Assembly: GCF_006345805.1 (NCBI RefSeq)
Contig: NC_043008.1
Location: 61,442,001 to 61,506,000 of the forward strand
Direction: 5' to 3'
Length of the DNA stretch: 64,000 nucleotides
DNA from: Octopus sinensis
Taxonomy: Eukaryota
Shown here: positions 56,891 to 57,251 of the stretch, piece after piece
How the letters are laid out: each line of letters opens with the position of its first letter
Position numbering within the stretch: the stretch's first letter is position 1
Made by a program: the position numbers and the translations under genes
The notes under the pieces: model-generated
What the model was told of the DNA's origin: nothing
Seen by the model: only the letters and a program-made list of their open reading frames with translations
Database searches by the model: none

Positions 56891-56967
56891 TATATATATA
56901 TATATATATTACGGAGATGTACTCGCATAGCAAGTAATTTGATCTGAGATCGTGTGCTGAAACGAAA

Positions 56968-57251
56968 ACAATTGCAGCGTGGAAGGTGTTTATAAGCCAT
57001 TTAAGAAACACACAAAATCCGTTCGATTCGCTCCAACATTTAAGTTTAATTTGTCAAAATATTTTCGTCGCTAAAATCCGCGACCTGTTCACTGACAAAG
57101 TCCGTGATGCAGCACGGACTTTGTCAGTGAACAGGTTGCGGATTTTAGCGACGAAAATATTTTGACAAATTAAACTTAAATGTTGGAGTGAATCGAACGG
57201 ATTTTGTGTGTTTCTTAAATGGCTTATAAACACCTTCCACGCTGCAATTGT
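56968..57251. repeat. Near-perfect palindrome, 139-bp arms and 6-nt loop
   Basis: 56968-57106 is the reverse complement of 57113-57251; no indels and two mismatches seen. Confidence 0.95.
57120..57169 (+). ncRNA. Minimal type I hammerhead with swapped G3-C8 core (mirror copy on minus strand at 57050-57099)
   Basis: TTTGTCA-GTGAACA-G-GTTGC ggatttta GCGAC-GAAA-ATAT-TT-TGACAAA. The minus-strand copy has a perfect GTCGC/GCGAC stem II. Confidence 0.65.

What the first reader, a model, noticed from the sequence alone, without database searches (positions are those of the whole stretch)
56909..57251. G3-C8 core-swapped hammerhead on both arms of a near-perfect 139-bp palindrome
The core reads GUGAACA. 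Relative to CUGAnGA both positions 3 and 8 are transversions, and together they preserve the 3-8 Watson-Crick pair needed for catalysis, which random decay is unlikely to produce. Stem I (7 bp), stem II (5 bp) and a self-complementary AAAAUAUUUU stem III are intact. Standard CUGAnGA searches would miss it. The palindrome puts a ribozyme on each strand and would also form long dsRNA or a cruciform, a potential ADAR or Dicer substrate that could mask the ribozyme. Two arm mismatches argue against a simple read fold-back artefact.
Basis: partly seen in the sequence, partly recalled or inferred. Interest (0 to 1): 0.75.

Follow-up and report, generated by a model that had tools for sequence, protein, structure and literature searches.

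The report
Penelope stump with swapped-core hammerhead
This palindrome is two head-to-head copies of the front end of a very common Penelope-type jumping gene, one of likely hundreds like it in the genome; each copy carries a predicted self-cutting RNA whose central base pair is reversed (G3-C8), a swap that relatives suggest is kept by selection, though cutting is untested.

Summary
In detail: 139-bp arms, two mismatches, a 6-nt centre, and a minimal type I hammerhead with a G3-C8 core on each strand. It is not special to this locus. The core 20-mer occurs 5,567 times in the genome, and 9 of the first 91 listed loci are short head-to-head pairs. Longer copies run into a reverse transcriptase plus GIY-YIG reading frame, so this is the shortest form of a known Penelope-like insertion: a pseudo-LTR with a 59-nt tail plus an inverted tail-less copy. 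G3-C8 is the family consensus. In related elements the hammerhead at the same place has C3-G8, U3-A8 or A3-U8 (10 of 10 hits paired), and the two nearest relatives have C3-G8. The swap is therefore likely a selected, derived change. Cleavage is untested, and under about 1% of copies start at the predicted cut. The two motifs lie on opposite strands and would be masked by the hairpin, so the palindrome is likely a by-product. I found no natural G3-C8 hammerhead in the searchable papers, but four key papers were unavailable. This scan noted the same kind of finding four times before on other DNA.

The parts
56909..56967 (-). 59-nt Penelope 'tail', on one arm only; codons 12-30 of the element's reading frame; outer end is the likely distal start site of reverse transcription
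   Evidence: frame continues through it in L003; 43 of 44 head-to-head pairs have the tail on exactly one arm
56968..57106 (-). Left arm: pseudo-LTR copy, element sense on the minus strand
57050..57099 (-). Minimal type I hammerhead motif: G3 at 57092, C8 at 57087, extra G at 57085, predicted cut between 57057 and 57056
56909..57000 (-). First 30 codons of the RT-endonuclease frame (ATG at 57000), 56 nt downstream of the predicted cut
   Evidence: in L003 the same ATG opens a stop-free frame to the end of the locus, into the RT region
57107..57112 (.). Junction and hairpin loop; native 5' bases of the right arm joined to the shortened left arm, with one shared base at 57106
   Evidence: same junction in L002 and L256
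57107..57251 (+). Right arm: inverted, tail-less pseudo-LTR copy ending after codon 11 (ATG at 57219), the likely proximal start site of reverse transcription
   Evidence: loose ends at 56966-56971 in all four DNA-type runs
57120..57169 (+). Second hammerhead motif: G3 at 57127, C8 at 57132, predicted cut between 57162 and 57163; C-to-U at 57137 turns one stem II pair into a wobble
56888..56908 (.). Left (TA)n target flank; target duplication cannot be read
57252..57347 (.). Right (TA)n target flank

Best explanation
The palindrome is two head-to-head copies of the 5' end (pseudo-LTR) of an abundant, protein-coding Penelope-like retrotransposon inserted in a (TA)n tract, likely left as a by-product of one insertion, and its G3-C8 hammerhead motif is the family consensus, likely kept by selection for a still untested self-cleavage. 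Shown: family identity, link to the RT/GIY-YIG frame, tail on one arm, recurring ends. Inferred: the enzyme nicked both target strands and primed two cDNAs, one at codon 30 (tail) and one at codon 11; both ran to near the capped 5' end of uncleaved RNA and were joined there by microhomology. Predicted: in the element's own RNA the hammerhead cuts weakly, as a dimer or with protein help, 56 nt before the start codon, and the cut is not needed to make the template. At this locus a read-through RNA from either side would make the antisense arm first and bury the motif in a 139-bp duplex.
For: Family: 5,567 exact core matches. Long copies carry an RT with YVDD, a CxxxCxxC linker and a GIY-YIG-type domain; Pfam RVT_1 hits 5 and GIY-YIG 3 of 32 aligned relatives. 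Layout: 43 of 44 head-to-head pairs have one tail and none has two. Independent priming: an extra C beyond the recurring 5' end sits on the tail-less arm in 13 pairs and the tail arm in 6, one pair counted in both; L256 has different loop II versions on its two arms. Selection on the pair: with positions 3 and 8 free, 10 of 29 related 3' regions gave a hit and all 10 pair (6 C-G, 3 U-A, 1 A-U); antisense gave 0 and shuffles 4 of 5,800, 1 paired. The tree groups the G3-C8 element with C3-G8 neighbours (100/100 and 95/96). The engineered C3G/G8C double mutant partly restores cleavage in a lizard Penelope hammerhead (PMC11167929).
Against: No cleavage was shown. Copies starting at the predicted cut are about 36 against about 19 at a control position, under 1% of copies and inconclusive. 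The focal protein itself has no Pfam or PDB hit. The 10 related hammerheads are not independent: five C3-G8 rows form one clade, so the real count is a few changes. The arms of several palindromes share rare variants (L257, L260, L262, L275), which fits one template, fold-back or later conversion as well as two RNAs from one source. The extra C as a cap mark is inference; the same bases also read as a 3' splice site. The 44 pairs were partly selected for the tail or the extra C.
Confidence: 0.78

Rival explanations
1. Same element and same by-product, but the inverted arm arises by fold-back self-priming of one strand, with the tail trimmed from one end by the endonuclease.
For: Proposed in PMC3846280 (self-priming) and PMC8557442 (tail from endonuclease resolution). 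Centres often have short microhomology and small loops. Arms often share rare variants.
Against: Here the loop bases belong to the tail-less arm, so fold-back of the tail-bearing strand cannot supply them without a further step. The extra C occurs on either arm or both (L187, no loop), and L256 has two versions. Two RT start sites matching the tail were measured in vitro (PMC11167929).
Confidence: 0.12
2. The G3-C8 motif no longer cuts. It is a hammerhead-shaped relic or protein-binding structure carried by a successful family.
For: More than 99% of copies come from uncut RNA. Catalytic mutants did not affect insertion in vitro (PMC11167929). Minimal Penelope hammerheads cleave poorly (PMC4209133). 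The sister family has C instead of A at position 9.
Against: A double transversion that restores the pair, with the other core bases intact across subfamilies 80-99% alike while loop II varies, is hard to explain without selection on the catalytic fold.
Confidence: 0.07
3. The palindrome is a self-spreading hairpin element or a host-used dsRNA regulator.
For: The identical centre junction recurs at L001, L002 and L256, and a few junction types dominate. A read-through RNA would form a very stable hairpin (-247.6 kcal/mol).
Against: Centres vary widely among 44 pairs. L256 shares the junction but has older arm versions. Recurrence fits microhomology hot spots. I have no sign of conservation or expression specific to this locus.
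Confidence: 0.03

Closest known systems
Endonuclease-positive Penelope-like elements with inverted pLTR and tail (Adineta vaga Pen2a, PMC3846280; scheme in PMC8557442)
   Same: pLTR holds the first codons of the frame (12 aa there, 11 here), the tail extends them (22 aa there, 30 here), inverted copy head-to-head, tail at one end only, microsatellite target.
   Different: Tail is 59 nt, against 30-40 nt in the papers. No reading frame lies between the arms; this is the minimal stump.
Minimal type I hammerheads of metazoan Penelope elements (Cervera and de la Pena 2014, PMC4209133)
   Same: Extra base between 9 and 10.1, G10.1-C11.1, short palindromic helix III needing a dimer, opposite-strand pairs 100-700 bp apart already reported, U3-A8 variant already reported.
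   Different: G3-C8 core, which I did not see in the parts read or the supplement passages. Stem I is 7 bp, longer than the 4-5 bp described for Schistosoma.
Anolis Poseidon element PAc (Frangieh et al. 2024, PMC11167929)
   Same: Two RT start sites inside the start of the frame that define the tail, AT-rich target, both strands nicked and extended, unprocessed RNA as template, C3G/G8C partly active.
   Different: There G3-C8 is an engineered mutant and the frame starts inside stem II; here it is natural and the ATG lies 56 nt after the cut. The linker here has a CxxxCxxC motif, described for Neptune/Nematis types.
Non-LTR retrozymes (bioRxiv 10.64898/2026.07.22.740005, part 1 read)
   Same: Non-coding pLTR-derived units with a type I hammerhead.
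   Different: Retrozymes are tandem direct repeats with two same-strand hammerheads; this is an inverted pair with one per strand.

Membership tests
Penelope-like element (EN+, C-terminal GIY-YIG) | Single frame with RT followed by GIY-YIG endonuclease | tested here: met
   L038, 717-aa open stretch with YVDD and a GIY-YIG-like end; Pfam hits in relatives only, none in the focal protein; links the window's ATG to the frame
Penelope-like element (EN+, C-terminal GIY-YIG) | pLTR covering 3' UTR end and first codons, optional tail, direct or inverted arrangement | tested here: met
Penelope-like element (EN+, C-terminal GIY-YIG) | Hammerhead motif in the pLTR | tested here: met
Neptune or Nematis clade | Zn-finger-like CX2-5CxxC linker between RT and EN | tested here: met
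   Motif present in L038; both linker cysteines C543 and C546 invariant in alignment A1
Neptune or Nematis clade | Phylogenetic placement with named reference elements | not testable with these tools
   No named reference Penelope proteins were returned by any search
Type I hammerhead ribozyme | Three helices around core positions U4 G5 A6 A9 G12 A13 A14 A15.1-U16.1 H17 | tested here: met
   helix III closes only a 2-nt loop as a monomer, which ViennaRNA rejects, so a dimer is predicted
Type I hammerhead ribozyme | Canonical C3-G8 | tested here: not met
   G3-C8 in both arms and in 95 of 101 copies; 0 C3-G8 among 17 double-changed copies
Type I hammerhead ribozyme | Watson-Crick pair between 3 and 8 | tested here: met
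   G3-C8; paired in 10 of 10 related hits and 24 of 25 sister-family copies
Type I hammerhead ribozyme | Site-specific self-cleavage after H17 | not testable with these tools
   Indirect genomic test inconclusive; only contigs, no raw RNA reads
Non-LTR retrozyme | Tandem direct units each with a same-strand hammerhead | tested here: not met
   One motif per strand, inverted; no other long copy in the window

The most novel reading that the evidence does not exclude
One Penelope clade uses all four Watson-Crick pairs at hammerhead positions 3-8, and this family is a natural, active G3-C8 ribozyme fixed in thousands of copies and not yet described. Its hundreds of mini-palindromes record twin priming by a dimeric enzyme on capped, uncut RNA, so the ribozyme acts as a switch on the mRNA leader, not as the cutter of the template.
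Probability: 0.3. Interest if true: 0.6.

Novelty: new variant of a known kind. Interest (0 to 1): 0.35.

Why it matters
If it cleaves, natural G3-C8 completes the covariation set for the 3-8 pair, and searches built on CUGAnGA miss thousands of motifs per genome. The function of Penelope hammerheads is still open. A core kept by compensatory change in a family whose copies come from uncut RNA argues that cleavage matters at some step other than making the template. The palindromes also offer a large natural sample for testing how inverted pLTRs and tails arise. This single locus has no shown function.

Tried and rejected
Rfam scan: no hammerhead family among listed matches. Pfam and PDB searches with the focal protein: nothing. 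Run search: no RNA holder listed on record. Four runs guessed to be RNA cover the pLTR deeply and the frame barely, but they may be DNA and copy number alone gives that pattern, so I did not use them; they showed no splice joint. DNA contigs do not span this locus, so they neither confirm nor refute it. Covariation among genomic copies of the family: the 17 double changes look like decay, none is C3-G8, and 4 are A3-U8 reachable by two transitions. The idea that a hammerhead cut defines 5' ends: inconclusive, rare at best. A first reading of all non-A bases after the recurring 5' end as untemplated was corrected: G (most of 764 matches) is templated in older versions (L261), so only C (677) against T (15 of the first 100 listed of 764) is informative. 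A splice-acceptor reading of the same end was neither confirmed nor excluded; no strong donor was found in the 3' UTR. Literature searches for natural G3-C8 found only engineered variants. Lunse et al. 2017, Hammann et al. 2012, Seehafer et al. 2011 and Przybilski and Hammann 2007 were not held, and supplement file 1 of PMC4209133 was not searched. These may already list the variant.

Full report
Observation. The palindrome is real as described: 139-bp arms (56968-57106 and 57113-57251), a 6-nt centre, and two mismatches that are G-U wobbles in plus-strand RNA. A descriptor with positions 3, 8 and 9 left free finds the motif on both strands: stem I 7 bp, core GUGAACA, one extra G, stem II 5 bp, GAA, a palindromic 6-nt helix III and U17. 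The predicted cuts are 57162/57163 on plus and 57057/57056 on minus. Rfam lists no hammerhead among its best 150 matches.

What it belongs to. The left arm plus the 59 nt outside it matches at 98-99% all 40 scored of 1,414 candidates in the own genome. The core 20-mer occurs 5,567 times with 0 in the control. Of 30 fetched loci, 12 continue upstream into shared sequence. Eight longer stretches show a 3' UTR and a frame with YVDD, a CxxxCxxC linker and a GIY-YIG-like end. The focal protein has no Pfam or PDB hit, but 5 of 32 aligned relatives hit RVT_1 and 3 hit GIY-YIG. Its best database match, at 57%, is labelled Octopus vulgaris by a source, so the host is likely an octopus. In L003 the ATG that corresponds to window 57000 opens a stop-free frame through the tail into the RT region. 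The arm therefore holds the hammerhead and codons 1-11, and the tail holds codons 12-30. This matches the pLTR-plus-tail anatomy described for rotifer Pen2a (PMC3846280, passages) and the general scheme (PMC8557442, passages).

The palindrome is ordinary. Among the first 100 listed core matches, 9 minus/plus pairs lie within about 100 bp (91 loci). That extrapolates to roughly 500 in the genome, a lower bound because both arms must match exactly. Opposite-strand hammerhead pairs 100-700 bp apart were already reported (PMC4209133, parts 1-2 of 4). Among 97 loci examined I found 44 distinct head-to-head pairs: 43 have the tail on one arm, none on both, one on neither. The set is partly selected (30 loci by the tailed query, 30 by the extra C, 20 as known pairs). 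The family, with the same core, is present in DNA-type runs of four coded organisms, with loose ends at the tail-less boundary in all four.

How the pair forms (inferred). A lizard Penelope enzyme nicks and extends both target strands, prefers AT-rich DNA and starts reverse transcription at two sites that bound the tail (PMC11167929, parts 1-2 of 4). Here many copies stop about 16 nt before stem I and end in an extra C: 677 matches, followed by different sequence from locus to locus in 30 fetched loci. The G/T alternative has 764 matches, 15 of the first 100 being T, and G is templated in older versions (L261). I read the C as a copy of the RNA cap; that RT behaviour is recalled knowledge. The C lies on the tail-less arm in 13 pairs and the tail arm in 6, with L187 counted in both. 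L256 has different loop II versions on its two arms (I fetched it because the difference showed). In the window the centre bases belong to the tail-less arm. All this favours two separately primed cDNAs joined by microhomology. Against it, several pairs share rare variants between arms, which also fits fold-back or conversion. An earlier scan note proposed two RNAs in about a tenth of palindromes; I saw 1 clear case in 20.

Is the swap selected? Within the family G3-C8 holds in 95 of 101 distinct copies (47 at 95% identity or more, 48 below; the 17 loci picked for core changes were left out), while loop II has several versions. Genomic copies with both positions changed look like decay: 17, none C3-G8. 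Across families the signal is clearer. From 80 metagenome loci encoding relatives I scanned the 29 whose match reached near the C-terminus, up to 700 nt downstream, with no constraint or bonus on 3 and 8. Ten gave a hit and all ten pair: 6 C-G, 3 U-A, 1 A-U. Antisense gave 0 of 29 and shuffles 4 of 5,800, one paired. A sister family in the same genome has C3-G8 in 24 of 25 matching loci out of 30. In a 12-protein tree the G3-C8 element is sister to that family (100/100), then to another C3-G8 element (95/96). G3-C8 is thus likely derived by a double transversion. The rows are not independent, so this is a handful of events, not ten.

Does it cut? Untested. Monomer helix III would close a 2-nt loop, so a dimer is predicted (PMC4209133). 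The engineered double swap partly rescues activity in a Penelope hammerhead that needs protein help. Copies starting at the cut: 51 pattern matches, 21 of 30 fetched truly truncated, about 36; control position 142 matches, 4 of 30, about 19. Against at least 4,516 copies that is under 1%, and the twofold excess could be RT stalling at stem I. Templates were thus mostly uncut RNA, as in the lizard study.

At this locus. The two motifs are on opposite strands and cannot dimerise in cis. A read-through RNA from either side makes the antisense arm first, and the hairpin (-247.6 kcal/mol) far outweighs the right arm's own fold (-34.1). Both arm mismatches are C/T differences at CpG in the element's sense: the right arm's T at 57137 is the minority state (6 of 159), and the left arm's C opposite 57189 is rare (3 of 231). 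I have no evidence on expression, editing or small RNAs.

Novelty. The architecture is known. Natural U3-A8 is known (PMC3088659, passages; PMC4209133). Searches for natural G3-C8 found only engineered forms (PMC11167929; PMC3884650, passages). Lunse et al. 2017, which covers Penelope hammerhead variants, and three other key papers could not be read, so absence from print is not shown. Also seen: passages of PMC6765202 and PMC7151607, and part 1 of 5 of the retrozyme preprint. The scan has four earlier notes of the same kind on other DNA. Verdict: a new variant of a known kind, interest 0.35.

Noticed in passing
L057-L085 (sister Penelope family, own genome) and L086:2497: The sister family's hammerhead has C instead of the conserved A at position 9 (CUGAUGC in 24 of 25 matching loci); L086 has C9 with U3-A8. 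The sister family also ends at two sites about 56 nt apart.
   Followed up: partly
L130:1710 (+): A related Penelope element in a metagenome contig has an A3-U8 hammerhead core at the usual place; one copy only.
   Followed up: partly
L031 and L261, just upstream of the pLTR: A branch-point-like CTAAC, a pyrimidine tract and YAG (TAG or CAG by subfamily) end 13 nt before stem I. The bases read both as a 3' splice site and as an initiator; unresolved.
   Followed up: partly
L214/L215 (G000:C7:20655452-20655520): A palindrome in which both arms stop at the predicted hammerhead cut site; a single case.
   Followed up: partly
L256 (G000:C1:46042150-46042700): Arms carry different loop II versions yet share a rare variant further along; the locus appears duplicated about 5.4 kb away.
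   Followed up: partly
window 2378 (+) and 43335 (-): Two other hammerhead-like motifs of unrelated sequence: a canonical C3-G8 minimal one at 2378, also seen in L077/L078, and a weaker one with U at position 9 at 43335.
   Followed up: no
window 46604-46759: Terminal inverted repeats around a short spacer, scoring against the mir-548 model below threshold; likely a mariner-type miniature element (label recalled).
   Followed up: no
window 55531-56400 (-): Broken frames that resemble a mariner-type transposase (resemblance recalled, not searched).
   Followed up: no
window 56636-56888: A SINE-like repeat (label recalled) directly left of the (TA)n target, with a 70% copy at 21327-21472; ARAGORN finds no tRNA in the window.
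   Followed up: partly
window 51368-51557 / 53229-53414 and 43909-44215: A 94% inverted pair about 1.7 kb apart, and a decayed self-inverted stretch at 68%.
   Followed up: no
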